From the NCBI GenBank assembly GCA_016211215.1, contig JACQSR010000033.1, forward strand, positions 4,766 to 68,765: a DNA stretch of 64,000 bases. Reading direction: 5' to 3'. Of the stretch, positions 5,042 to 36,101 are shown in pieces (positions within the stretch are counted from its first letter, which is position 1; each line of letters opens with the position of its first letter). Source of the DNA: Candidatus Woesearchaeota archaeon (lineage in GTDB: Archaea > Nanobdellota > Nanobdellia > Woesearchaeales > JACQSR01). The notes beneath the pieces are model-generated. The model saw only the letters and a list, made by a program, of their open reading frames with translations, searched no databases and had not been told where the DNA came from. The position numbers were made by a program, and so were the translations under genes.

Positions 5042-7150
5042 TTGCAAAACGCAAATTATAAATATCCTCTGTTGGATTTTACATCTATTATTCACGAAAA
5101 AAAGGGGTTCATAGCGTTATTTATAGTGGGATTTATATTGGTATTCCTAGCCCAGGGCTCATTTGCCGTTAAGGTAGATACTGCCGTGGCAGATGGATTA
5201 GGCAATGATACAGTGCCGGTGATTATCTCCTTCCAGAAATACATTCCGCCTGACAGCGTCATGGCTTCTGTTGGAATCACCAGCACTAAGGCAGCATCCG
5301 CAAATTCACGCCCGGATTTGGTGATAAGGAAGCGGTACAGGAACTTTAACATGATAGCGGGCAATATCTCGAGGGAGGGCCTCAAAAAACTCATGGAAAA
5401 TCCCTCAGTCAAGTCCATCGAGATGGACGCAAGGGTTTCAATATTGCTGGACAAAAGCGCACCCCTTATCGGCGCATCAGAAGTAAATGAAATGGGCTAC
5501 AATGGCGCATTTCTCAGGGGAAATGGCGCATCTGTCTGCGTAATTGACACAGGAGTTGATTCCTCACATCCGGCCCTTTCTGTAATCGGCGGGTATGACT
5601 TTGTAAACTCCGACAATGACCCAATGGACGACAACGGCCATGGCACCATGGTTGCAGGAATAATATCCTCAAGGGACTCCAGATACACAGGTGTTGCACC
5701 TGAATCGGGCATAGTTGCATTAAAGGCTCTTGATTCAGCAGGCTCAGGCTCCTTCTCCGATGTTGTTGCATCAATAGATTACTGCATCACAAACAGGGAC
5801 AAGTTCAATATCTCCGCGATATCCATGAGCCTTGGTGTTTCCGGGTTCCGTACAAACGACTCATCCGAATGCGATTCATTGGCTGCAGGGAATGCCATAA
5901 ACACCGCAGTGCAGAACAACATCCCGGTTGTGGTGTCTTCAGGAAACGGCGGCTACCCGGATGGTATATCATACCCTGCATGCGCGTCAGGTGCAATTTC
6001 GGTGGGGGCAACTGACGACTACGACCGGATTGCAAGCTTCTCCAACTCAGCGTCATTGCTTGATTTGCTTGCTCCGGGCGTTGGAATAAAAACATCTTAC
6101 CCCGGCACGGAGTTTTTATCCGGCTCCGGAACATCTTTTTCTGCACCCCACATCGCAGGGGCTGTTGCATTGCTCAGGCAGATTGGCATGATAAATTCCT
6201 CGCTGAGCCTCTCACCATCCGAGGTGGAAAATCTGCTCAAGAATACCGGCGTGCGGCTAATCGATGGAAAAAACGGCCTTTCATTCCCCCGCGTGGACAT
6301 TAACGCGGCAGTGCTGTCATTGGCAGGAAATATGAACAGCCAGGAAACGCCGATGGCTGTAAGCATAGAGTCCCCAAAACCAATAGTTTATGCCTCAAGG
6401 TCCATCCCATTAATCATCTCCCTTACTGCAAAAGCAGACTCCATTGAATACTCTGCCAACGGAAGATTCGCAACATTGTGCAGCAACTGCAGGTATTTTA
6501 AGGACAATGTCGTTTTCAGTGAAGGCTCAAACGAGATTGTAGTCAGGGCCAACAGGAAAGGGGTGTCAAACTCAACAAATGTGTCATTCCTTGTGGATTC
6601 CATCAAGCCCAAGATTCATTCAACAAATTCAAATGGATGGAGCAACGGCACTTTTGCAGTTACATTCACGGAAGAAAACCCAAAGAACATTTCCCTGTGG
6701 ATTAGGGGCAACGGCAGTAATTTCTCCCGGTTTGAGATGAAAAACTGCGCATCCGGCAGGCGTGTCTCGTGCACAACAAATATTGGCATAAGCAATATGG
6801 AGAACCAGGCAATTGATTTCTATTTTACCATTGCAGACCTGATAAACGAGGTTTCCTCAAGGATACAGTCATCAGTAGTTGACACCACAAGGCCCAGTCT
6901 CATTATCAACTCGCCTATTGATGGAAGCGCTTATTACGGCAGGCTGACCCTCGATGCAATATCATCAGAGCCAGCAGCCATCTCCTATTCAGTAAACGAC
7001 GGGCCTCAAAAAAAGCTCTGCACATACTGCAGAACCGTATCAAGGAAGCAGGCATTTTCCACAGGCAATAACTCAGTTGCTGTTTACGCCGCCGACAGGG
7101 CAGGAAACTCCAACTCCAGGACGGTTTCATTCCAGACCAGCAATATTTAA
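5042..7150 (+). CDS. secreted subtilisin-like serine protease (peptidase S8) with C-terminal Ig-like repeats
   Basis: Catalytic triad motifs VIDTGVD (Asp), HGTMVAG (His) and GTSFSAPHIAG (Ser). N-terminal hydrophobic signal IALFIVGFILVFLAQGSFA. The start is uncertain (TTG at 5042 or 5072). A TATA TTTATAAATA sits at 5024..5033. Confidence 0.85.
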   Translation: MQNANYKYPLLDFTSIIHEKKGFIALFIVGFILVFLAQGSFAVKVDTAVADGLGNDTVPVIISFQKYIPPDSVMASVGITSTKAASANSRPDLVIRKRYRNFNMIAGNISREGLKKLMENPSVKSIEMDARVSILLDKSAPLIGASEVNEMGYNGAFLRGNGASVCVIDTGVDSSHPALSVIGGYDFVNSDNDPMDDNGHGTMVAGIISSRDSRYTGVAPESGIVALKALDSAGSGSFSDVVASIDYCITNRDKFNISAISMSLGVSGFRTNDSSECDSLAAGNAINTAVQNNIPVVVSSGNGGYPDGISYPACASGAISVGATDDYDRIASFSNSASLLDLLAPGVGIKTSYPGTEFLSGSGTSFSAPHIAGAVALLRQIGMINSSLSLSPSEVENLLKNTGVRLIDGKNGLSFPRVDINAAVLSLAGNMNSQETPMAVSIESPKPIVYASRSIPLIISLTAKADSIEYSANGRFATLCSNCRYFKDNVVFSEGSNEIVVRANRKGVSNSTNVSFLVDSIKPKIHSTNSNGWSNGTFAVTFTEENPKNISLWIRGNGSNFSRFEMKNCASGRRVSCTTNIGISNMENQAIDFYFTIADLINEVSSRIQSSVVDTTRPSLIINSPIDGSAYYGRLTLDAISSEPAAISYSVNDGPQKKLCTYCRTVSRKQAFSTGNNSVAVYAADRAGNSNSRTVSFQTSNI

Positions 7151-7175
7151 AAACCGGATAAGGATTTTGCTCTCC

Positions 7176-8072
7176 ATGTCCTACATATTTTCAAACATTC
7201 TCGGAACATTCATAATTGACAACAACCTAAAAATAATCGACAGGGTTGTTTATCAGCACGCTTCAGACGAAAAACGGCTTTTGCTGAAGCACGGGGCAGT
7301 TAAGCCTGACAATGATGCCCTGAAAAGTATTCTTGGCGTTTTCAAGGACAGGGCTTACTCGGAAAAGTTCCATTCCATCAACCTGGAGCTCACCAAGGCC
7401 GGAATCAGGGATTCTGTAACTGACGAGTTTTTAGTCATAGAGGCAGTCCACGCAATCGACGACATAACAAAGGTTTCAAATACCTTGATGAAAAGATTCA
7501 GGGGATGGTACGCTCTGCAAAATCCGGAATACGAGCATTCGGAAACCGATAATGAAATCCTTTTGGGCAATGTGCTGAAGGCAAACACCGTGAAGAAAGA
7601 AAAAATATCAATGGGCGCGCATTTCAGCAAAGAGGACATCGAGCCGGTAATGGAGCTTGGAGAAAAAATCCGCGTGCTCTACCGGCTAAGGTCATCGCAG
7701 GAAAAGTACCTTGATGGGGTTATGGGAAGGCTTTGCCCCAACGTTTCTGAAGTCGCGGGGGCCTTAATTGGCGCACGGCTTCTTGTGCATGCAAGGTCGC
7801 TCAGGAGACTCGCAATGATGCCCGCTTCCACCATACAGCTTCTCGGGGCTGAGCAGGCACTTTTCAGGCACATGAGAACCGGGGCAAGGGCTCCAAGGCA
7901 CGGTCTTATTGTAGCCCATCCCCTTTTGGTGTCTGCGCCGCAGAAAATGCACGGAAAGATAGCAAGGGGCCTGGCAGACAAGATTGCAATTGCGGCAAAA
8001 GTGGACTATTTCAGGGGAAAGTTCATAGGCAACAAGCTAAGGGAGGAGCTTGAAAAGAAGTTTGCAGCATGA
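7176..8072 (+). CDS. nop5: Nop5 (Nop56/58) C/D box snoRNP protein
   Basis: NOP domain motifs LIGARLLVHARSLRRLA, STIQLLGAEQALFRH and KHGLI. Translationally coupled to the fibrillarin gene. Start trimmed to MSYIFS. Confidence 0.85.
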   Translation: MSYIFSNILGTFIIDNNLKIIDRVVYQHASDEKRLLLKHGAVKPDNDALKSILGVFKDRAYSEKFHSINLELTKAGIRDSVTDEFLVIEAVHAIDDITKVSNTLMKRFRGWYALQNPEYEHSETDNEILLGNVLKANTVKKEKISMGAHFSKEDIEPVMELGEKIRVLYRLRSSQEKYLDGVMGRLCPNVSEVAGALIGARLLVHARSLRRLAMMPASTIQLLGAEQALFRHMRTGARAPRHGLIVAHPLLVSAPQKMHGKIARGLADKIAIAAKVDYFRGKFIGNKLREELEKKFAA

Positions 8073-8740
8073 AACAGTCATCAATATTTGAGGTTTATGA
8101 GGAGCAGAAAGGCAAGCGCAGATTCCTATACACAAAATCCATCCTGAAGGGCAATGATGTTTACGGGGAGAGGATAGTAAATGAAGGCAACGATGAGTAC
8201 CGCGAATGGAACCCCCAAAAATCAAAGCTTTGCGCTGCAATATTGAACGGAGTGCCCAACATATTCCTGAGGAAAGGTGATTTTGTGCTGTACCTCGGCT
8301 CGTCAACAGGGACAACCGTATCGCATGTATCCGACATTGTTGGCACCGAAGGCCTTGTATTCGCAATCGATATTGCGCCAATTGTAATGAGGGACCTTGT
8401 CTTTTTGTCGGAAAAAAGAAACAACATTGTTCCGGTTCTTGCAGACGCAAACATGCCTGAAACTTACCGGGAGAGAATTTCCCTCGTGGATTTCCTATAC
8501 CAGGATGTTGCCCAGAAGAACCAGGTTGAGATTTTCCTCAAGAACGCAAGGATGTATCTGAAGAAAGGGGGCTATGCGCTCATCGCAGTAAAGGCAAGAA
8601 GCATTGACGTCTCCAAGCGCCCAGGAGAGGTGTACAGGCAGGTATTCAATGAAATTGAAAAAAGCGGCATGAAGATTATAGACAAGAGAAACCTCGACCC
8701 CTTCCAGAGGGACCACCTGATGCTGTTCTGCAAGTATTGA
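8069..8740 (+). CDS. flpA: fibrillarin, rRNA/tRNA 2'-O-methyltransferase
   Basis: YREWNPQKSKLCAAIL and VLYLGSSTGTTVSHVSDIV (SAM-binding motif). ATGA overlap with nop5. Confidence 0.9.
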   Translation: MKQSSIFEVYEEQKGKRRFLYTKSILKGNDVYGERIVNEGNDEYREWNPQKSKLCAAILNGVPNIFLRKGDFVLYLGSSTGTTVSHVSDIVGTEGLVFAIDIAPIVMRDLVFLSEKRNNIVPVLADANMPETYRERISLVDFLYQDVAQKNQVEIFLKNARMYLKKGGYALIAVKARSIDVSKRPGEVYRQVFNEIEKSGMKIIDKRNLDPFQRDHLMLFCKY

Positions 8741-23110: not shown

Positions 23111-23947
23111 ATGGAAATCAACAGGATGCTCTTCGGCACTGCAGGAATACCGCTTTCAAGCATTCCGAGGACAACCGAGAACGGGATTGCGCATCTCAAA
23201 AAGCTCAACTTGGATGCAATGGAGCTTGAGTTTGTGCACAGCGTTAACATATCGCCGGACAAAGCGCCCATGGTAAAAAGAGCAGCAGAAAAAAGCAACA
23301 TTACGCTGACATGCCACGGACAGTATTACATAAACCTTTCTTCAAATGAAAACTCAATAATTGGGGCGTCGAAGCAGAGAATACTTAATGCGGCAAGAAT
23401 AGCAGATTTATGCGGCGCCTGGTCTTTGGTTTTCCACGCCGGCTTCTACCAGAAAAAATCACCGGGAGATGTTTACGGCATTATCAAAAAAGGCCTCGAA
23501 GAAATCTCCGGAATTCTGAAGGGGGAAGGAAACAAAATATGGATAAGGCCGGAAACTACGGGAAAACTGGCGCAATTCGGCACGGTTGATGAAATTTTAA
23601 GGCTCAGCCAGGAAGTTGATAATGTAATGCCCTGCATTGACTTTTCGCACCTGCACGCAAGGAGCAACGGGAAAATAAACTCCGAGAATGATTTTAGGCA
23701 AATTCTGGAAAAAGTTGAAAATGCATTGGGAAAAAACGGATTAAATAATATGCACATCCACCTTTCGGGGATAAATTACGGCGAAAGGGGAGAAAAAAAC
23801 CACCTAAACCTCGAAGAGTCGGACATCAACTACAAAGGACTCCTGAAAGTATGGAAAGACTTTAATATAAAGGGAGTTGTAATCTCGGAATCCCCAAACA
23901 TCGAAGGAGACGCAATGTTAATAAAGGGGCTCTTTGAAATCCTATGA
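23111..23947 (+). CDS. endonuclease IV-like / xylose-isomerase-like TIM-barrel protein (AP endonuclease family 2)
   Basis: FGTAGIP, the LVFHAG, IRPETTG and IDFSHLHA metal-ligand blocks, and HIHLSG. Confidence 0.7.
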   Translation: MEINRMLFGTAGIPLSSIPRTTENGIAHLKKLNLDAMELEFVHSVNISPDKAPMVKRAAEKSNITLTCHGQYYINLSSNENSIIGASKQRILNAARIADLCGAWSLVFHAGFYQKKSPGDVYGIIKKGLEEISGILKGEGNKIWIRPETTGKLAQFGTVDEILRLSQEVDNVMPCIDFSHLHARSNGKINSENDFRQILEKVENALGKNGLNNMHIHLSGINYGERGEKNHLNLEESDINYKGLLKVWKDFNIKGVVISESPNIEGDAMLIKGLFEIL

Positions 23948-24735
23948 CAATGTACGTACACAATATTGACCCAACTTTATTGCACATAGGCCCGTTGGAG
24001 ATTCGCTACTATGGCCTTGTTTACGTTCTCGGCTTTATCGCTTCATATTATGTCCTGATATGGTACCAGAAAAAGGGCTATCTGGAGCTGAAGAAGGACG
24101 ATGTTGAGAATCTTCTGCTCTACATAATGCTTGGTGTCATTTTAGGCTCAAGATTGGGGGAGGTTTTCTGGGAGCCGGCATATTACCTTTCTAATCCAAT
24201 TAATATACTCAAAATCTGGGAAGGCGGGATGTCGTTCCACGGCGGCTTAATCGGCGTCATAATAGCGGTGTACTATTTTTCCAGAAAATACAAAATAGGT
24301 TTCCTGGAGATTACAGACATCATTGCAATTCCGGCAGTCATCGCTCTTGCGTTTGGCAGGATTGCAAACTTCATCAACGGCGAGCTTTGGGGCACCGTGA
24401 CAAATGTTCCGTGGTGCGTCCAGTTCAAGAATGCCGAAGGATGCAGGCACCCAGTGCAGCTCTATGCGGCATTCGGAAGATTTGTTGCAGGCGGAATACT
24501 AATCCTGCTTGCAAGGAGCAGAAGAAAAACAGGATTCATATCATTTGCGTTCCTTACGCTGATTGGCATTGGAAGATTTTTTTCTGATTTCCTGAGGGAA
24601 GACCCAAGATTGTTTGGGTTAAGCTTAGGGCAGTATTTGTCATTGGCCATGGCCATAGCAGGCATATACATCTTGGCCAAGAGCTACAGGGAAGAATTAA
24701 TCAACATCTTTAAGCGCACTGACGTGTCTTCCTAG
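23944..24735 (+). CDS. lgt: prolipoprotein diacylglyceryl transferase (Lgt) homolog
   Basis: Lgt blocks IRYYGLVYVLGF, GSRLGEV, WEGGMSFHGGLIG, GRIANFINGELWG, RHPVQLY and GRFFSDFLRED. ATGA overlap with the upstream gene. Confidence 0.85.
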   Translation: MTMYVHNIDPTLLHIGPLEIRYYGLVYVLGFIASYYVLIWYQKKGYLELKKDDVENLLLYIMLGVILGSRLGEVFWEPAYYLSNPINILKIWEGGMSFHGGLIGVIIAVYYFSRKYKIGFLEITDIIAIPAVIALAFGRIANFINGELWGTVTNVPWCVQFKNAEGCRHPVQLYAAFGRFVAGGILILLARSRRKTGFISFAFLTLIGIGRFFSDFLREDPRLFGLSLGQYLSLAMAIAGIYILAKSYREELINIFKRTDVSS

Positions 24736-26186: not shown

Positions 26187-26264
26187 TAAGGCTTATAAAA
26201 AGCCCCCGAATACCCGGGAAAATGATAACACGCTGTTGCTGTTAATTCTGTCATTGTACTAGCC

Positions 26265-26337
26265 GGGAGGGTAGCCAAGCGGCCAAGGCGATCGCCTGCA
26301 GAGCGATTATTCATGGGTTCGAGTCCCATTCCTCCCT
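26265..26337 (+). tRNA. tRNA-Cys (GCA), intron-less
   Basis: Acceptor GGGAGGG/UCCUCCC plus discriminator U73 (a Cys identity element). D arm GCC-AAGCGGCCAA-GGC. Anticodon arm AUCGC-CUGCAGA-GCGAU. T arm AUGGG-UUCGAGU-CCCAU. A T-run TTAATTTTTGT lies downstream. Confidence 0.9.
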
Positions 26338-26408
26338 CTTAATTTTTGTAAGGATTTGTTTGTTATAACATATAAATCTATAAAAAGATACCATGGTTAG
26401 TTATCCAA

Positions 26409-33353: not shown

Positions 33354-33361
33354 TTTTTAAA
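33354..33361. promoter_or_regulatory. shared near-palindromic TATA element (GTTTTTAAATG) between divergent valS and rfc
   Basis: The core lies 23-30 nt from the valS ATG (33331, minus strand) and 30 nt from the ATG at 33391 (plus strand). Confidence 0.5.
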
Positions 33362-33390
33362 TGTTGATATTGTTGAACCAAACATTAATA

Positions 33391-34614
33391 ATGTATGATG
33401 CATCACAACACCCCATGAGCCTATGGACAGAAAAATACAAGCCTAAGACTGGAAAGGATATCATAGGGCAGGAAGATGCTGTCAATGCCGTTAAAAGATT
33501 TCTCGCGAACTTTAGGACTGGAAAAAAGGCAGCAATTCTTGTCGGTCCAACTGGCGTTGGAAAGACCTGCATACCTTATGCCATAGCATCAGACATGCAG
33601 TGGGAAATTTTAGAGGCAAACGCATCTGACTTCCGCGGCAAGGAGGAAGTTAACAGCACAATCGGCTCTGCATTGTTCCAGCGCTCATTGTTCTCTTCGG
33701 GAAAGATAATCCTTGTCGATGAGATTGACGCACTTTCCTCCAAAGACCGGGGCGGCCTTCAGGCACTTCAGAAGCTAATTGAGACAGCCCCATATCCGAT
33801 TGTCCTAACTGCCTCGGACCTCTCGGACTTCAAGTTCAACAGCCTGAAAAGAATCTCTGAAGTAATCGAGCTTGGGAAAATTCCAACCGAAAAGATTGCA
33901 GAGCACCTTATGGCAATCTGCAGCGAAGAGGGTATAAATTCCTCCCTTGAGGTTATGAAAAGCATTGCAAGGCGCTCAGGCAACGACATAAGGGGTGCAA
34001 TTAACGATGTTCAGAGCCTCGCAGGCAATCGGGAAGTCACGAGAGAAGATGTAGACCTTCTTTCGGAGCGCGAACGCACTGAAACCCTTGTAAACGCCCT
34101 CACAAGGATATTCAAGACAACTGATGTGCACATAGCCATGGCATCCCTGGACTATGTAAGCGAAGATGTAAACGAATACTTCCTGTGGATAGATGAGAAC
34201 CTTCCAAAGGAGTACGAAAGGCCAGAAGACATCTCAAATGCATACTCCTGCATATCCAAGGCAGACGTGTTCAACAGAAGGATAATATCGCGCCAGTACT
34301 TCAGGTTCCTTGTTTACATTAATGCCCTGCTTAGCGGGGGTGTTGCATTGTCCAAGGGTTCAAAGTACAAAGGCGTTGCCAAGTTTTCGCCGCCCGGACG
34401 TCTGCTTAAGGTCTATTGGGCAAAACAGAAGTCTGCAAAAAAGAAGTCCATTGCCGGGAAAATCCCAATTCCTACATCAGTCAGGAGCTTCATAAAAGAG
34501 GAATTTCCCTTCATCAGCCATATTTTTCGCCACAACAAAGGCATGGCAGCTGCCATGGCATCCGAGTTCAGGCTTGAGGAGGAAGACATACTGTTTCTAA
34601 AGAGAGACCACTGA
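33391..34614 (+). CDS. rfcL: replication factor C large subunit-like AAA+ clamp loader
   Basis: WTEKYKPKTGKDIIGQ RFC box, Walker A GPTGVGKT and Walker B VDEID. Start is either 33391 (leaderless spacing) or 33415. Confidence 0.8.
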   Translation: MYDASQHPMSLWTEKYKPKTGKDIIGQEDAVNAVKRFLANFRTGKKAAILVGPTGVGKTCIPYAIASDMQWEILEANASDFRGKEEVNSTIGSALFQRSLFSSGKIILVDEIDALSSKDRGGLQALQKLIETAPYPIVLTASDLSDFKFNSLKRISEVIELGKIPTEKIAEHLMAICSEEGINSSLEVMKSIARRSGNDIRGAINDVQSLAGNREVTREDVDLLSERERTETLVNALTRIFKTTDVHIAMASLDYVSEDVNEYFLWIDENLPKEYERPEDISNAYSCISKADVFNRRIISRQYFRFLVYINALLSGGVALSKGSKYKGVAKFSPPGRLLKVYWAKQKSAKKKSIAGKIPIPTSVRSFIKEEFPFISHIFRHNKGMAAAMASEFRLEEEDILFLKRDH

Positions 34615-34695
34615 AAAATGGTTATAGATAGGTATATACCTATTATATGCAATATGCAATAAGTATATATTTAATGGAAACATTATACTCTATTC

Positions 34696-34930
34696 GGGGG
34701 GTGAGGCACTGTAGGCTTTGAGGTGCTTTACCAATCACTTGGCGATGCAGAAATCGTTAAGCGAACTTGGTGACGATGAAATCACTGAGCGAAAATCTGC
34801 CATAGTAAGTGGTTGTAGAAAAAGTGCAGTGTTGGATGACAACATACGCAGCAATACCACGAAACGGGGATGGTAAAGCATAAATTGCCAACGAGGTGAT
34901 GAAAAGAGCCTGCAGGAAACCCCCTTCTTT
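34696..34930 (+). ncRNA. candidate structured K-turn-containing ncRNA; architecture resembles a minimal RNase P RNA, identity unresolved
   Basis: A TATA AAGTATATATTTAA (34661..34674) sits about 25 nt upstream of the G-run start. The 5' and 3' ends pair: GGGGG/CCCCC, then CUGUAGGC (34709..34716) with GCCUGCAG (34908..34915), then UGCUUUACC (34724..34732) with GGUAAAGCA (34872..34880). The unit ends in TTCTTTTGTT. No credible ORF is present. Confidence 0.55.
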
Positions 34931-34972
34931 TGTTGAGCAACATATAAATACCTCTGGGTTCCTGGAACCTGT

Positions 34973-35467
34973 ATGACATCAGGACTGTTTATCGGCAGGT
35001 TCCAGCCTTTTCACAACGGCCACCTTCTTGACATAAAGGAAGCGCTAAAGGAGGTTGACGAACTGATAATAGCCATTGGCTCTTCCCAGCACAGAAACAC
35101 CAAGGATAATCCTATGTCTTTTGAGGAGCGCGCCGAAATGATTGAGGATGTTCTGCTTTCAAACAACATAAAGAATTTCACAATCTTTCCTGTTCCCGAC
35201 TACCAAAACGACAGTAAATGGCTTAAGCACATTGAAACTTTGCTCCCCAAGTTTGACATCGTTTATACCGGCAACGACCGCGTCATCGGCATCTTCAAAA
35301 AGCACAAAAGATACAAAGTAAAAAAAGTAAAACTTCTGAAAGGGGTTTCAAGCACCATTATCCGGGATTTGATTAAAAAAGGGAAAGTCTGGAAACAACT
35401 TGTTCCGAAAGAAGTTGCTGGTTTTCTTGAGAAAAACAGAATCGTTGAAAGGATAAGGAAGCTTTGA
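34973..35467 (+). CDS. nadM: nicotinamide-nucleotide adenylyltransferase (archaeal type)
   Basis: GLFIGRFQPFHNGH nucleotidyltransferase motif and SSTIIRD. A TATA ATATAAATA lies about 25 nt upstream. Confidence 0.9.
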   Translation: MTSGLFIGRFQPFHNGHLLDIKEALKEVDELIIAIGSSQHRNTKDNPMSFEERAEMIEDVLLSNNIKNFTIFPVPDYQNDSKWLKHIETLLPKFDIVYTGNDRVIGIFKKHKRYKVKKVKLLKGVSSTIIRDLIKKGKVWKQLVPKEVAGFLEKNRIVERIRKL

Positions 35468-35753
35468 TGTTTTCCCCGGAATGCGTTTAAGTCTGCCCGA
35501 TATGCGTTGTTAAACAATTTGTTTTGATTGATAGTTGTTTTCCAAAATATTACCGGGACACACAATTCCATTTAGTAGAAAGGGGACGACGCATTTTTGA
35601 CACAATATATTTATACTAAACCGTACTTTAGATTAGTAAATGAAACAAAGTAAAAGTAAATTTATAAATAAGTTTGTAATCTTTTGGCAAAAACAAAACG
35701 AAACATTTAAATAGTACCTTATTTACTTGATAGTAATAACACTTCGAAGAGAT

Positions 35754-36101
35754 ATGAAAATGAAACGACCTAAATTATATTTTGATTGCAGAGTAGAACC
35801 TGGAAAAAGACGGGGGTTACGTACTGAAAACAGAACTGTAGATGCTATAATAACAGATGCATATTTTGGAAAATACCCTCAACCCGGACCATTTAGTATA
35901 GATGCACCTGTAGGATTAAATATAGATGTGAAATGCAATGGTGCGACTTATGGTCAAACGTTCACTGATATGGGAGATATTAGCGGAATCATGAATGATT
36001 ATGGGATTAATCTACCGGGTCAACTTAAAAACAAACCATGCACTGCTGTTTTTCCAGAAGATAGTGTAAGAATGATTGGTTTATATACAAAACCAAAATA
36101 A
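35754..36101 (+). CDS. hypothetical protein (orphan) in an AT-rich island
   Basis: ORF track, with the start moved to the ATG at 35754 downstream of the TATA CATTTAAATAG (35704..35714). No family recognised. Confidence 0.4.
   Translation: MKMKRPKLYFDCRVEPGKRRGLRTENRTVDAIITDAYFGKYPQPGPFSIDAPVGLNIDVKCNGATYGQTFTDMGDISGIMNDYGINLPGQLKNKPCTAVFPEDSVRMIGLYTKPK

What the first reader, a model, noticed from the sequence alone, without database searches (positions are those of the whole stretch)
34696..34930. An unannotated ~235-nt structured RNA gene has K-turns and an RNase P-like P1-P2-(CR-I)...(CR-V)-P2'-P1' layout
**Transcription unit.** Between rfc and nadM lies a TATA box (34661..34674), a G-run start about 25 nt downstream, and a T-run end (TTCTTTTGTT, 34925..34934). 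There is no credible ORF; only a 65-aa antisense ORF is listed.

**Nested end pairing.**
- GGGGG (34696..34700) pairs with CCCCC (34920..34924).
- CUGUAGGC (34709..34716) pairs with GCCUGCAG (34908..34915).
- UGCUUUACC (34724..34732) pairs with GGUAAAGCA (34872..34880).

**K-turn signals.** The internal loop between the last two helices has K-turn signatures. On one strand it reads GGC-UUU-GA. On the other it reads GUGAUGAAAAGA-GCC, which includes a perfect C-box GUGAUGA at 34896..34902. Two further hairpin loops carry GAUGA.

**RNase P resemblance.**
- GAGCGAAAAUCUGCC (34787..34801) resembles the universal CR-I GAGGAAAGUCC.
- ACGAAAC-GGGGAU (34859..34871) resembles CR-V ACAGAA-N-GGCUUA and sits immediately 5' of the P2 3' strand, as in real RNase P RNAs.
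- AUCU(G)CC can pair with GGGGAU as a P4-like helix with one bulged nucleotide.
- Only about 55 nt separate the two P4-like strands, so any specificity domain would be almost absent, as in the minimal type T RNase P RNAs of Thermoproteaceae.

The identification is tentative. At minimum this is a new K-turn RNP RNA.
Basis: partly seen in the sequence, partly recalled or inferred. Interest (0 to 1): 0.75.

Follow-up and report, generated by a model that had tools for sequence, protein, structure and literature searches.

The report
Unclassified structured RNA gene in Woesearchaeota
Between the rfc and nadM genes of a DPANN (Woesearchaeota) archaeon lies a real, independently transcribed, highly folded RNA gene of about 230 nt that matches no known RNA family; the suggested kinship with RNase P and the K-turn do not survive comparison with three related genomes.

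Summary
In detail: window 34696-34930 (+) is a stand-alone structured RNA gene. It has a TATA box about 28 nt upstream, a G-run start and a T-run end. It folds far better than shuffles (z -5.15). Homologues lie directly downstream of rfc in three other Woesearchaeales genomes (z -4.9 to -6.0).

A hand alignment of the four copies supports seven helices: a P1-P2-P3 stalk, a side hairpin and crown hairpins. 94.5% of cells are paired, 14 pairs change on both sides, and 0 of 500 shuffles reach these values.

The interpretation does not hold.
- No RNase P, SRP or other Rfam model matches any of three copies tested, even at E<=10.
- The CR-I-like string lies in a window-specific, unalignable stretch.
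- The "AC" of the CR-V-like string is GU in the homologues. The string also sits 5' of the stalk strand, whereas real P4-3' lies 3' of P2-3'.
- No conserved long-range P4-like helix exists.
- The K-turn (GGC-UUU-GA/GA-GCC) is absent from all three homologues.

Best reading: a new, lineage-restricted, trans-acting structured ncRNA, probably a protein-bound scaffold, of unknown function. A radically remodelled RNase P RNA is not excluded (about 10%).

The parts
34661..34672 (+). TATA box / promoter of the RNA gene (AAGTATATATTT), centred about 28-30 nt upstream of the first G
   Evidence: The same ATAAGTATATAT / ATAGATATATAT element sits at the same distance in L003, L004 and L083.
34696..34930 (+). 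The RNA gene itself (about 230-235 nt; homologues 177-196 nt)
   Evidence: z -5.15. Homologues found by nhmmer and by covariance model. No Rfam match.
34696..34702 (+). P1 5' strand GGGGGGU; pairs with 34919-34925 (ACCCCCU)
   Evidence: 7 pairs, invariant in all four copies, so neither supported nor contradicted by covariation.
34703..34708 (+). J1/2 internal loop GAGGCA, invariant; faces GAA (34916-34918; AAGA/AAAA/AUA in the homologues)
34709..34717 (+). P2 5' strand CUGUAGGCU; pairs with 34907-34915 (AGCCUGCAG)
   Evidence: 9 pairs, 6 vary, 2 with changes on both sides (G-C/A-U; U-A/A-U), 97% paired.
34724..34734 (+). P3 5' strand UGCUUUACCAA; pairs with 34870-34880 (AUGGUAAAGCA)
   Evidence: 3 pairs with changes on both sides (U-A/C-G, A-U/C-G, A-U/U-A). 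The lower half is degenerate in L083 (79.5% paired overall).
34738..34761 (+). Hairpin A: CUUGGCGAU-GCAGAA-AUCGUUAAG; conserved loop GCRRAR on an invariant GAU/AUC stem top
   Evidence: 3 pairs with changes on both sides.
34766..34789 (+). Hairpin B (CUUGGUGA-CGAUGAAA-UCACUGAG), an insertion present only in the window copy
   Evidence: Absent from L003, L004 and L083.
34800..34812 (+). Hairpin X: CCAU-AGUAA-GUGG; AGUAA loop conserved in 3 of 4 copies (lost in L004)
   Evidence: stems CCAU/GUGG, CAG/CUG, CCAA/UUGG..
34829..34845 (+). Hairpin C: GUGUUG-GAUGA-CAACAU, probably sitting on a short stem GUG (34824-34826) / CAC (34858-34860)
   Evidence: Four compensatory pairs between the window and L003. 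Homology to the GAUGU-GAAAA-ACAUC hairpin of L004/L083 is uncertain.
34858..34869 (+). Conserved element CACGAAACGGGG (CGUGAAAUGG.. in the homologues): 3' strand of a short stem, then the single-stranded AAAYGG junction leading into P3 3'.
   Evidence: The CRYG part covaries with an upstream partner (CAUG/CGUG, CACG/CGUG, CGCG/CGUG, GUG/CAC), read directly from the sequences.
34884..34906 (+). Hairpin D at the P2/P3 junction: AUUGCC-AACGA-GGUGAU followed by GAAAAG. Nearly invariant.
   Evidence: 6 pairs, one G-U/A-U change.
34925..34934 (+). Oligo-T terminator TTCTTTTGTT immediately after P1
   Evidence: T-runs at the same place in L003, L004 and L083.
34941..34952 (+). Context only: separate TATA box (CATATAAATACC) about 27 nt upstream of the nadM ATG (34973). 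nadM is therefore a leaderless transcript of its own.
   Evidence: Equivalent TATA upstream of nadM in L003, L004 and L083.

Best explanation
This is a stand-alone gene for a stable, complex-folded non-coding RNA that founds a family not represented in Rfam. So far it is seen only in a small Woesearchaeales (DPANN) lineage.

Shown:
- It has its own TATA promoter, starts at the G-run and ends at an oligo-T tract.
- Its two ends are locked together in a roughly 27-bp three-part stalk (P1, P2, P3).
- The stalk is interrupted by an invariant internal loop (GAGGCA / RAA).
- A nearly invariant side hairpin (AUURCC-AAYGA-GGUGAU, then GAAA) branches at the P2/P3 junction.
- P3 opens into a multiloop 'crown' of two to four hairpins, depending on the copy. 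Their stems covary and their number and length vary.
- The crown hairpins carry purine-rich loops (GCRRAR, AGUAA, GAUGA/GAAAA).

Inferred: the RNA acts in trans as a folded particle. The invariant unpaired nucleotides around the stalk loop, the three-way junction and the AAAYGG junction strand form the functional surface. The crown hairpins are peripheral.

My best guess at mechanism is a protein-bound scaffold (RNP core), rather than a guide RNA, a cis-regulator or a canonical RNase P ribozyme. The biochemical function is not known.
For: **Folding.** z-scores are -5.15, -4.86, -6.01 and -4.85 for the four copies, with 0 of 200 shuffles as stable in each case. The antisense strand gives only -2.6.

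**Conservation.**
- Homologues lie directly downstream of rfc in L003 (=L144), L004 and L083 (=L084).
- Their RFC proteins are only 56-65% identical to the window's.
- The first 16 nt of the RNA, hairpin D and the junction strands are nevertheless invariant.

**Covariation**.
- 53 pairs in 7 helices, 94.5% paired against 85.3% in shuffles.
- 14 pairs change on both sides.
- 0 of 500 shuffles reach any of the five measures.
- Partners slid by 1-3 columns give 36-48% paired.
- RNAalifold on the alignment recovers P1, P2, P3 and hairpins A, C and D.

**Independent transcription.**
- Conserved TATA at about -28 and a T-run after P1 in all four copies.
- nadM has its own TATA 27 nt before its ATG.
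- In L083 a minus-strand gene separates the RNA from nadM.

**Not coding.** ORFs differ in strand, frame and sequence among the copies, and copy lengths differ by amounts that are not multiples of three.

**No known family.** The whole window at gathering thresholds gives only tRNA-Cys. Three copies at E<=10 give only noise of 9-20 bits.
Against: - Only four distinct sequences exist, all from one lineage. The changes are not many independent events, and the alignment was fitted by hand to the structure, which inflates pair counts.
- P1 and most of hairpin D never vary, so they rest on thermodynamics and conservation only.
- Homology of the crown hairpins between the window/L003 and L004/L083 is uncertain.
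- There is no expression data.
- 'Protein-bound scaffold' is an inference from anatomy. No protein-binding motif was identified. A ligand-binding or catalytic RNA would look similar.
- A housekeeping role (RNase P) cannot be excluded, because the rest of these genomes could not be searched.
Confidence: 0.55

Rival explanations
1. A radically reduced or remodelled RNase P RNA. The stalk would correspond to P1/P2, hairpin A to P3, the A-rich stretch after it to J3/4-CR-I, and GAUGAAA before the P2 3' strand to CR-IV. The RNA, with Pop5/Rpp30/Rpp29/L7Ae-type proteins, would remove tRNA 5' leaders.
For: - It is a stable-RNA-type gene of the right size class (type T RPRs are about 200 nt).
- tRNA-Cys in the window has its best TATA about 65 nt upstream, so it probably carries a leader that needs RNase P (inference).
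- DPANN genomes were reported to lack the protein-only HARP enzyme and to carry RNP-type subunits (PMC6380272).
- There is precedent that a new RPR type escapes existing models: type T scored 'not detected to 10.2 bits' with RF00373 (PMC3579882).
- The nanoarchaeon Nst1 has an RPR shorter than type T that cannot be folded canonically (PMC3655853).
- Weak string resemblances exist: GGAAGCUCC (L083) and GGAAAAACC (L004) after hairpin A against GGAAAGUCC; invariant GAUGAAA just 5' of the P2 3' strand against CR-IV AGAUGAAU before P2 3' (consensus from my own knowledge).
Against: - No RNase P model of Rfam 15 (archaeal, type T, bacterial or nuclear) appears at E<=10 for any of three copies.
- No conserved long-range helix crosses the stalk. 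All conserved pairings are nested, and candidate P4 strands differ in place and register from copy to copy.
- The CR-I-like string of the window is unalignable.
- The 'AC' of the CR-V-like string is 'GU' in three copies, and its G-run is GUGG or GGAC in two.
- That element lies on the wrong side of the stalk 3' strand.
- Type T RPRs keep the universal P4, J2/4 and J15/2 nucleotides (PMC3579882). This RNA does not.
- The invariant 5' 18-mer occurs in only one further true copy in the JGI metagenome collection. That points to a rare lineage-specific RNA rather than a universal one.
- No RNase P protein gene was found among 46 window ORFs scanned.
Confidence: 0.1
2. A cis-acting leader or riboswitch that controls nadM (NMN adenylyltransferase) by regulated termination at the T-run.
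For: - The RNA lies 40-50 nt upstream of nadM, on the same strand, in three of four genomes.
- P1 is followed directly by a T-run.
- Repeated GGUGA / UUACC elements allow alternative pairings conserved in all four copies.
Against: - nadM has its own conserved TATA box 27 nt before the ATG in all four genomes, so it is leaderless.
- In L083 a convergent gene lies between the RNA and nadM, yet the RNA is intact.
- The association that is conserved in all four is with the 3' end of rfc.
- Crown size varies by about 60 nt, which is unusual for an aptamer.
Confidence: 0.06
3. A K-turn RNP guide RNA (an atypical long C/D or H/ACA sRNA) bound by L7Ae, Nop5 and fibrillarin or by Cbf5.
For: - The genome encodes Nop5 (7077-8072) and fibrillarin (8069-8740).
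- GUGAUG is invariant.
- The weak Rfam noise hits are mostly C/D snoRNA models.
- The window copy has a perfect K-turn consensus at J2/3.
Against: - All C/D hits are 9-19 bits against thresholds of 42-70.
- No conserved D box (CUGA) partners the GUGAUG.
- GGUGAU is Watson-Crick paired in hairpin D.
- The K-turn is missing in three of four copies.
- There is no ACA/ANA box after any hairpin, and the internal loops are too small for a pseudouridylation pocket.
Confidence: 0.05
4. A diverged SRP (7S) RNA.
For: Ends paired in a long stalk with hairpins at the top. It is a stable-RNA-type gene.
Against: - No hit to Archaea_SRP or any SRP model at E<=10.
- No helix-8 type internal loops or GGAA...AGCA motif in any crown hairpin.
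- A side hairpin on the 3' strand of the stalk has no SRP counterpart.
Confidence: 0.02
5. Not a functional RNA: a chance-structured spacer, a small protein gene or a degenerate mobile-element remnant.
Against: - Four z-scores below -4.8.
- Compensatory changes in five helices.
- Conserved promoter and terminator.
- No conserved ORF.
- A single copy per locus between housekeeping genes.
Confidence: 0.02

Closest known systems
Archaeal type T (minimal) RNase P RNA, Rfam RF02357 (Thermoproteaceae)
   Same: - About 200 nt.
- Stand-alone stable RNA gene.
- 5' and 3' ends paired in a long terminal stem followed by further helices.
- A hairpin directly after the stalk's 5' strand.
- A purine-rich stretch after that hairpin.
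- A GAUGAA-like string before a stalk 3' strand.
   Different: - No P4 pseudoknot.
- No conserved CR-I or CR-V nucleotides.
- An extra hairpin (D) on the 3' side of the stalk.
- No covariance-model score.
- All conserved helices are nested.
Archaeal SRP (7S) RNA, Rfam RF01857
   Same: Long stalk closing both ends, with hairpins at the distal end.
   Different: - No helix 8 or helix 6 motifs.
- No Alu-domain loops.
- About 100 nt shorter.
- No model match.
K-turn RNPs (box C/D and H/ACA sRNAs; L7Ae sites in archaeal RNase P)
   Same: A GUGAUG(A) string. One consensus K-turn in the window copy only. The C/D protein machinery is encoded in the same window.
   Different: - The K-turn is not conserved.
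- No D box and no ACA box.
- GUGAUG is base-paired in a plain hairpin.
- The RNA is three to four times longer than a C/D sRNA.
Orphan complex-folded bacterial ncRNAs found by comparative genomics (e.g. raiA motif, OLE, ROOL/GOLLD classes)
   Same: - Found only through conservation and covariation.
- Multi-helix junction architecture with conserved junction nucleotides and variable peripheral hairpins.
- Function not deducible from sequence.
   Different: Archaeal (DPANN), much narrower distribution (four genomes), smaller than OLE/ROOL/GOLLD, and no sequence or model similarity.

Membership tests
RNase P RNA (any type) | Scores with a curated RNase P covariance model (RF00373 archaeal, RF02357 type T, bacterial or nuclear models) | tested here: not met
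   No RNase P family is listed at E<=10 for the window, L004 or L083 copies, nor at gathering score in the window. Caveat: type T itself was invisible to RF00373 (PMC3579882), so this alone is not decisive.
RNase P RNA (any type) | P4: a conserved long-range helix whose 3' strand lies 3' of the P2 3' strand (a pseudoknot with P2), flanked by CR-I and CR-V | tested here: not met
A column-wise search for helices conserved in all four copies finds only nested helices and trivial alternatives. A per-sequence search of crown against 3' region gives different partners and registers in each copy.
RNase P RNA (any type) | CR-I (GNAANNUCNGNG / GGAAAGUCC) conserved after P3 | tested here: not met
   Window GAGCGAAAAUCUGCC lies in an unalignable, partly window-specific stretch. 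L083 has GGAAGCUCC, L004 GGAAAAACC and L003 AAGAAGCC. This is a purine-then-C-rich tendency only.
RNase P RNA (any type) | CR-V (ACNNNANNNGNNUA) conserved, immediately 5' of the P1 3' strand | tested here: not met
   ACGAAACGGGGAU in the window is GUGAAAUGGGGUU, GUGAAAUGUGGAA and GUGAAAUGGACAC in the homologues. The element lies inside the stalk, 5' of the P3 3' strand.
RNase P RNA (any type) | CR-IV-like J15/2 (AGNNNNAU) just 5' of the P2 3' strand | tested here: inconclusive
   GAUGAAA(A/C) is conserved 5' of the P2 3' strand in three of four copies (GAUGCAAAAAA in L003). A 6-7 nt resemblance without the surrounding core cannot be evaluated.
RNase P RNA (any type) | Being the only RNase P RNA of the genome; pre-tRNA 5' cleavage activity | not testable with these tools
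   Only 64 kb of the genome and +/-4 kb of the related loci are available. About 430 kb of other Woesearchaeales rfc loci held no Rfam RNase P or SRP hit, which is uninformative.
Kink-turn (L7Ae-binding) RNA | Canonical stem, 3-nt bulge, tandem sheared G.A/A.G, conserved among homologues | tested here: not met
   GGC-UUU-GA / GA-GCC occurs only in the window. The bulged-strand GA and the non-bulged GA are both absent in L003, L004 and L083. J1/2 (GAGGCA / RAA) does not fit the consensus either.
Box C/D sRNA | C box RUGAUGA and D box CUGA brought together by a terminal stem; guide regions; length 50-70 nt | tested here: not met
   Best C/D model scores are 9-19 bits against thresholds of 42-70. 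No conserved CUGA. GGUGAU is paired with AUURCC.
Archaeal SRP RNA | Match to RF01857; helix 8 with symmetric and asymmetric loops and a GNAR loop | tested here: not met
   No SRP family at E<=10. The crown hairpins are plain stems.
Riboswitch / 5' leader of nadM | Part of the same transcript as the regulated ORF in all members | tested here: not met
   nadM has its own TATA 27 nt before its ATG in all four genomes. In L083 a convergent gene intervenes. These are sequence inferences, not transcript mapping.

The most novel reading that the evidence does not exclude
This is the founding member of a new functional class of complex-folded, trans-acting archaeal RNA, specific to a DPANN (Woesearchaeales) lineage and unrelated to RNase P, SRP or guide RNAs. 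It would have its own biochemical role, such as the core of an unknown RNP, a ligand-binding RNA or a ribozyme. The extreme sub-case is that it replaces the canonical RNase P RNA with a core that lacks P4.
Probability: 0.55. Interest if true: 0.7.

Novelty: categorically new. Interest (0 to 1): 0.55.

Why it matters
Archaea have very few known large structured RNAs beyond rRNA, tRNA, RNase P, SRP and guide sRNAs. DPANN genomes are tiny, so a conserved, strongly promoted 180-235 nt RNA with a seven-helix fold is unlikely to be dispensable baggage.

If it is a new RNP core or ribozyme, it adds a class of functional RNA. If it turned out to be a P4-less RNase P RNA, it would change the definition of that ribozyme's universal core.

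Practically, the four-sequence alignment and model give a handle for finding more members, and a short, easily synthesised RNA for biochemical tests.

Tried and rejected
1. Rfam cmscan, at gathering score on the whole window and at E<=10 on three copies: nothing relevant.

2. Widening the family:
   - 80 Woesearchaeales rfc loci from genome contigs searched with nhmmer single-sequence and profile queries. Only L003 and L004 matched.
   - Two further RFC relatives at 50-51% identity lack the RNA.
   - Most other loci have less than 100 nt after rfc. The longer gaps hold unrelated sequence.
   - The metagenome scan with the invariant 5' 18-mer gave 60 loci, of which only L144 (identical to L003) is real. 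In hindsight a 3'-half or gapped pattern might have reached further.
   - Core covariance model R1 against 673 kb (window plus 83 loci): only the four known copies. The window copy is split because of its long crown.

3. Looking for a canonical RNase P or SRP RNA in about 430 kb of Woesearchaeales loci, and for GGAAAGUCC in all loci: none found. The single L050 hit is not an RNA gene.

4. Pseudoknot / P4 search: none conserved.

5. RNase P protein genes in the window: none among 46 ORFs scanned.

6. Ideas considered and dropped:
   - SRP Alu-like 'CUGUAGG' (it is CUGCAGA in three copies).
   - A BHB or circular RNA.
   - An H/ACA pocket.
   - A small ORF starting at the AUG inside GGUGAUGAAA. 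The frames differ among copies, so this is not coding.
   - An anti-Shine-Dalgarno role for the invariant GAGGUGAU. It is an 8-nt complement of the 16S 3' end, but it is sequestered in hairpin D. Left as an unexplained observation.

7. The literature search found no description of such an RNA in DPANN.
Full report
**What is in the window.**
The 360-nt spacer between the replication factor C large-subunit gene (33361-34614, +) and an NMN adenylyltransferase-type gene, nadM (34973-35467, +), holds several signals (Pfam; sequence):
- an AT-rich promoter region with a TATA box (AAGTATATATTT, 34661-34672);
- a run of six G starting at 34696;
- about 230 nt of mixed sequence;
- CCCCC followed by TTCTTTTGTT (34925-34934);
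- a second TATA box (34941-34952) 27 nt before the nadM ATG.

RFC homologues identify the organism as a Woesearchaeota (DPANN) MAG.

- The + strand folds to -84.4 kcal/mol against -59.4 +/- 4.9 for dinucleotide shuffles (z -5.15). The - strand reaches only z -2.6.
- nhmmer found homologues directly downstream of rfc in three further genomes. These are L003 5308-5486 (a 'Nanoarchaeia' MAG, identical to metagenome locus L144), L004 2330-2518 (a single-cell genome) and L083 2505-2700 (GCA_023255615.1, identical to L084).
- Their RFC proteins are only 56-65% identical to the window's. Even so, the TATA box, the first 16 nt of the RNA, several loops and junctions, the 3' CCCCC and the T-run are conserved.
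- Each homologue folds far better than its shuffles: z -4.86, -6.01 and -4.85.
- No ORF is shared among the copies.

**Structure.**
I aligned the four RNAs by hand (entered as the N-padded alignment A5). The common architecture is:
- P1: GGGGGGU/ACCCCCU, invariant.
- An invariant internal loop GAGGCA facing RAA(A).
- P2: 9 bp.
- A three-way junction carrying hairpin D on the 3' side (AUURCC-AAYGA-GGUGAU, followed by GAAA).
- P3: 10-11 bp.
- A multiloop 'crown'.

The crown holds hairpin A (invariant GAU/AUC top, loop GCRRAR) and hairpin X (loop AGUAA, lost in L004). It also holds one or two further hairpins and the conserved strand C-R-Y-G-AAAYGG leading back into P3. The window copy has an extra 24-nt hairpin B and longer linkers, which explains its 235 nt against 177-196 nt for the others.

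On this alignment 94.5% of cells are standard pairs, against 85.3% in shuffles and 36-48% with slid partners. Fourteen pairs change on both sides, and 0 of 500 shuffles reach any of the measures. RNAalifold on the same alignment recovers P1, P2, P3 and hairpins A, C and D.

Caveats:
- There are four sequences from one lineage.
- The alignment was fitted to the structure.
- P1 and hairpin D are invariant.
- The lower half of P3 is degenerate in L083.
- The GAUGA-loop hairpin of the window/L003 may not be homologous to the GAAAA-loop hairpin of L004/L083. An alternative is that the homologous unit is the hairpin whose 3' strand is CRYG. That strand covaries with its partner in all four copies (CAUG/CGUG, CACG/CGUG, CGCG/CGUG, GUG/CAC).

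**It is a gene of its own, not a leader.**
- All four copies have the TATA box centred about 28 nt before the first G and a T-run right after P1.
- nadM has its own TATA 27 nt before its ATG in all four genomes, so it is leaderless.
- In L083 a convergent gene lies between the RNA and nadM.

**RNase P hypothesis.**
1. No RNase P family of Rfam 15 appears for the window, L004 or L083 copies, even at E<=10 with permissive filters. The lists hold only 9-20-bit noise, mostly C/D snoRNA models.
2. The CR-I-like GAGCGAAAAUCUGCC lies in the window-specific or unalignable part of the crown. The homologues show only a purine-then-C tendency (GGAAGCUCC, GGAAAAACC, AAGAAGCC).
3. The CR-V-like ACGAAACGGGGAU is GUGAAAUGGGGUU, GUGAAAUGUGGAA and GUGAAAUGGACAC in the homologues. 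The 'AC' and the G-run needed for the proposed P4 are therefore not conserved.
4. A search for helices conserved in all four copies, and a per-sequence search for crown-to-3'-region helices, found no consistent long-range pairing. All conserved helices are nested.
5. In genuine RNase P RNAs the order is P1-P2-P3-P4(5')...P2(3')-P4(3')-P1(3'). CR-V therefore follows the P2 3' strand and P4 crosses P2 (established knowledge of the family). Type T RNAs retain the universal P4, J2/4 and J15/2 positions (PMC3579882).

In favour of keeping the idea alive:
- Type T was itself invisible to the archaeal model.
- Nanoarchaeon Nst1 has an unusually short, non-canonical RPR.
- DPANN reportedly lack protein-only RNase P.
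- The window's tRNA-Cys seems to have a leader.
- GAUGAAA before the P2 3' strand recalls CR-IV.

I could not search the rest of the genomes. I put this reading at about 10%.

**K-turn hypothesis.**
The window's GGC-UUU-GA / GA-GCC is a textbook K-turn consensus. The corresponding positions in the three homologues carry no GA on either strand, and the window's own MFE extends P2 through it.
- GUGAUG is invariant, but it is the 3' strand of hairpin D.
- Hairpin B with its GAUGA loop exists only in the window.
- Hairpin C has GAUGA in two copies and GAAAA or CAGAAAA in the other two.
- The genome does encode Nop5 and fibrillarin, so L7Ae-type proteins are expected. Nothing conserved in this RNA looks like their binding site.

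**Distribution.**
- Seventy-six other Woesearchaeales rfc loci lack the RNA by nhmmer and by a core covariance model.
- Most of these loci have no room for it after rfc.
- The invariant 5' 18-mer occurs only once more as a true copy in the JGI metagenome collection.

Within the data reachable here, the family is confined to one small lineage with four species-level representatives. More diverged relatives at other loci cannot be excluded.

**Conclusion.**
This is a genuine, independently transcribed, complex-folded ncRNA of a family not in Rfam and not found in the literature searched.

The anatomy consists of a closed stalk, invariant junction and internal-loop nucleotides, and variable peripheral hairpins with purine-rich loops. 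It suggests a compact trans-acting particle. I favour a protein-bound scaffold, with low confidence in that specific role. The RNase P and K-turn-RNP identifications are not supported.

Noticed in passing
window 34892-34899 (GAGGUGAU) and the equivalent in L003, L004, L083: The invariant GAGGUGAU in hairpin D is an 8-nt perfect complement of the conserved 16S rRNA 3' end (AUCACCUC; my own knowledge). Its partner strand AUURCC resembles that rRNA end, so hairpin D looks like a Shine-Dalgarno/anti-SD duplex mimic. This may be coincidence.
   Followed up: partly
window 34700-34705, 34727-34732, 34885-34889, 34895-34899: Two GGUGA elements (5' end and hairpin D) and two UU(U/A/C)ACC elements (P3 5' strand and hairpin D) allow three alternative 5-6-bp pairings that are possible in all four copies. 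This could be a folding intermediate, a switch, or simply repeated sequence.
   Followed up: partly
window 7077-8740 (+): A Nop5 (PF01798) and fibrillarin (PF01269) gene pair. The organism has box C/D RNP machinery, yet no C/D sRNA reached an Rfam threshold in the 64 kb.
   Followed up: partly
window 23944-24735 (+): A bacterial-type prolipoprotein diacylglyceryl transferase (Lgt, PF01790, 228 bits) in an archaeal genome. It is adjacent to an AP endonuclease 2 / xylose-isomerase-like TIM-barrel gene.
   Followed up: no
window 26191-26338: tRNA-Cys (26265-26338) has its clearest TATA-like element (GCTTATAAAAAG) about 65 nt upstream. This implies a 5' leader of about 40 nt and hence a need for RNase P activity in this organism.
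   Followed up: partly
window 34619-34660 and the equivalent upstream regions in L003, L004, L083: The roughly 70 nt upstream of the RNA's TATA box are also conserved (GGTATATAC...ATATAT...ATATGC). In the window they include the palindrome ATAGGTATATACCTAT. This may be a regulator site or the rfc terminator.
   Followed up: no
L038 3520-3819 and L034 5266-5400: The rfc-downstream spacers of two other Woesearchaeota share a palindromic element (ATGTCGGAA...TTCCGAGCAT.CTCAAAAACC...GGTTTTTGACAA), repeated within L038. It looks like a MITE or a repeated RNA motif and is unrelated to the RNA studied here.
   Followed up: no
L026 5240-5400: The rfc-downstream spacer holds a long, nearly perfect inverted repeat (GGCTTAGTAGAAAAAGTCC...GGACTTTTTCTACTAAGCC) enclosing further hairpins. 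It may be another structured RNA or a terminator in a different Woesearchaeales lineage.
   Followed up: no
window 35727-36101 (+): A 124-aa ORF downstream of nadM has no Pfam match and is not present at the equivalent place in L003, L004 or L083.
   Followed up: no
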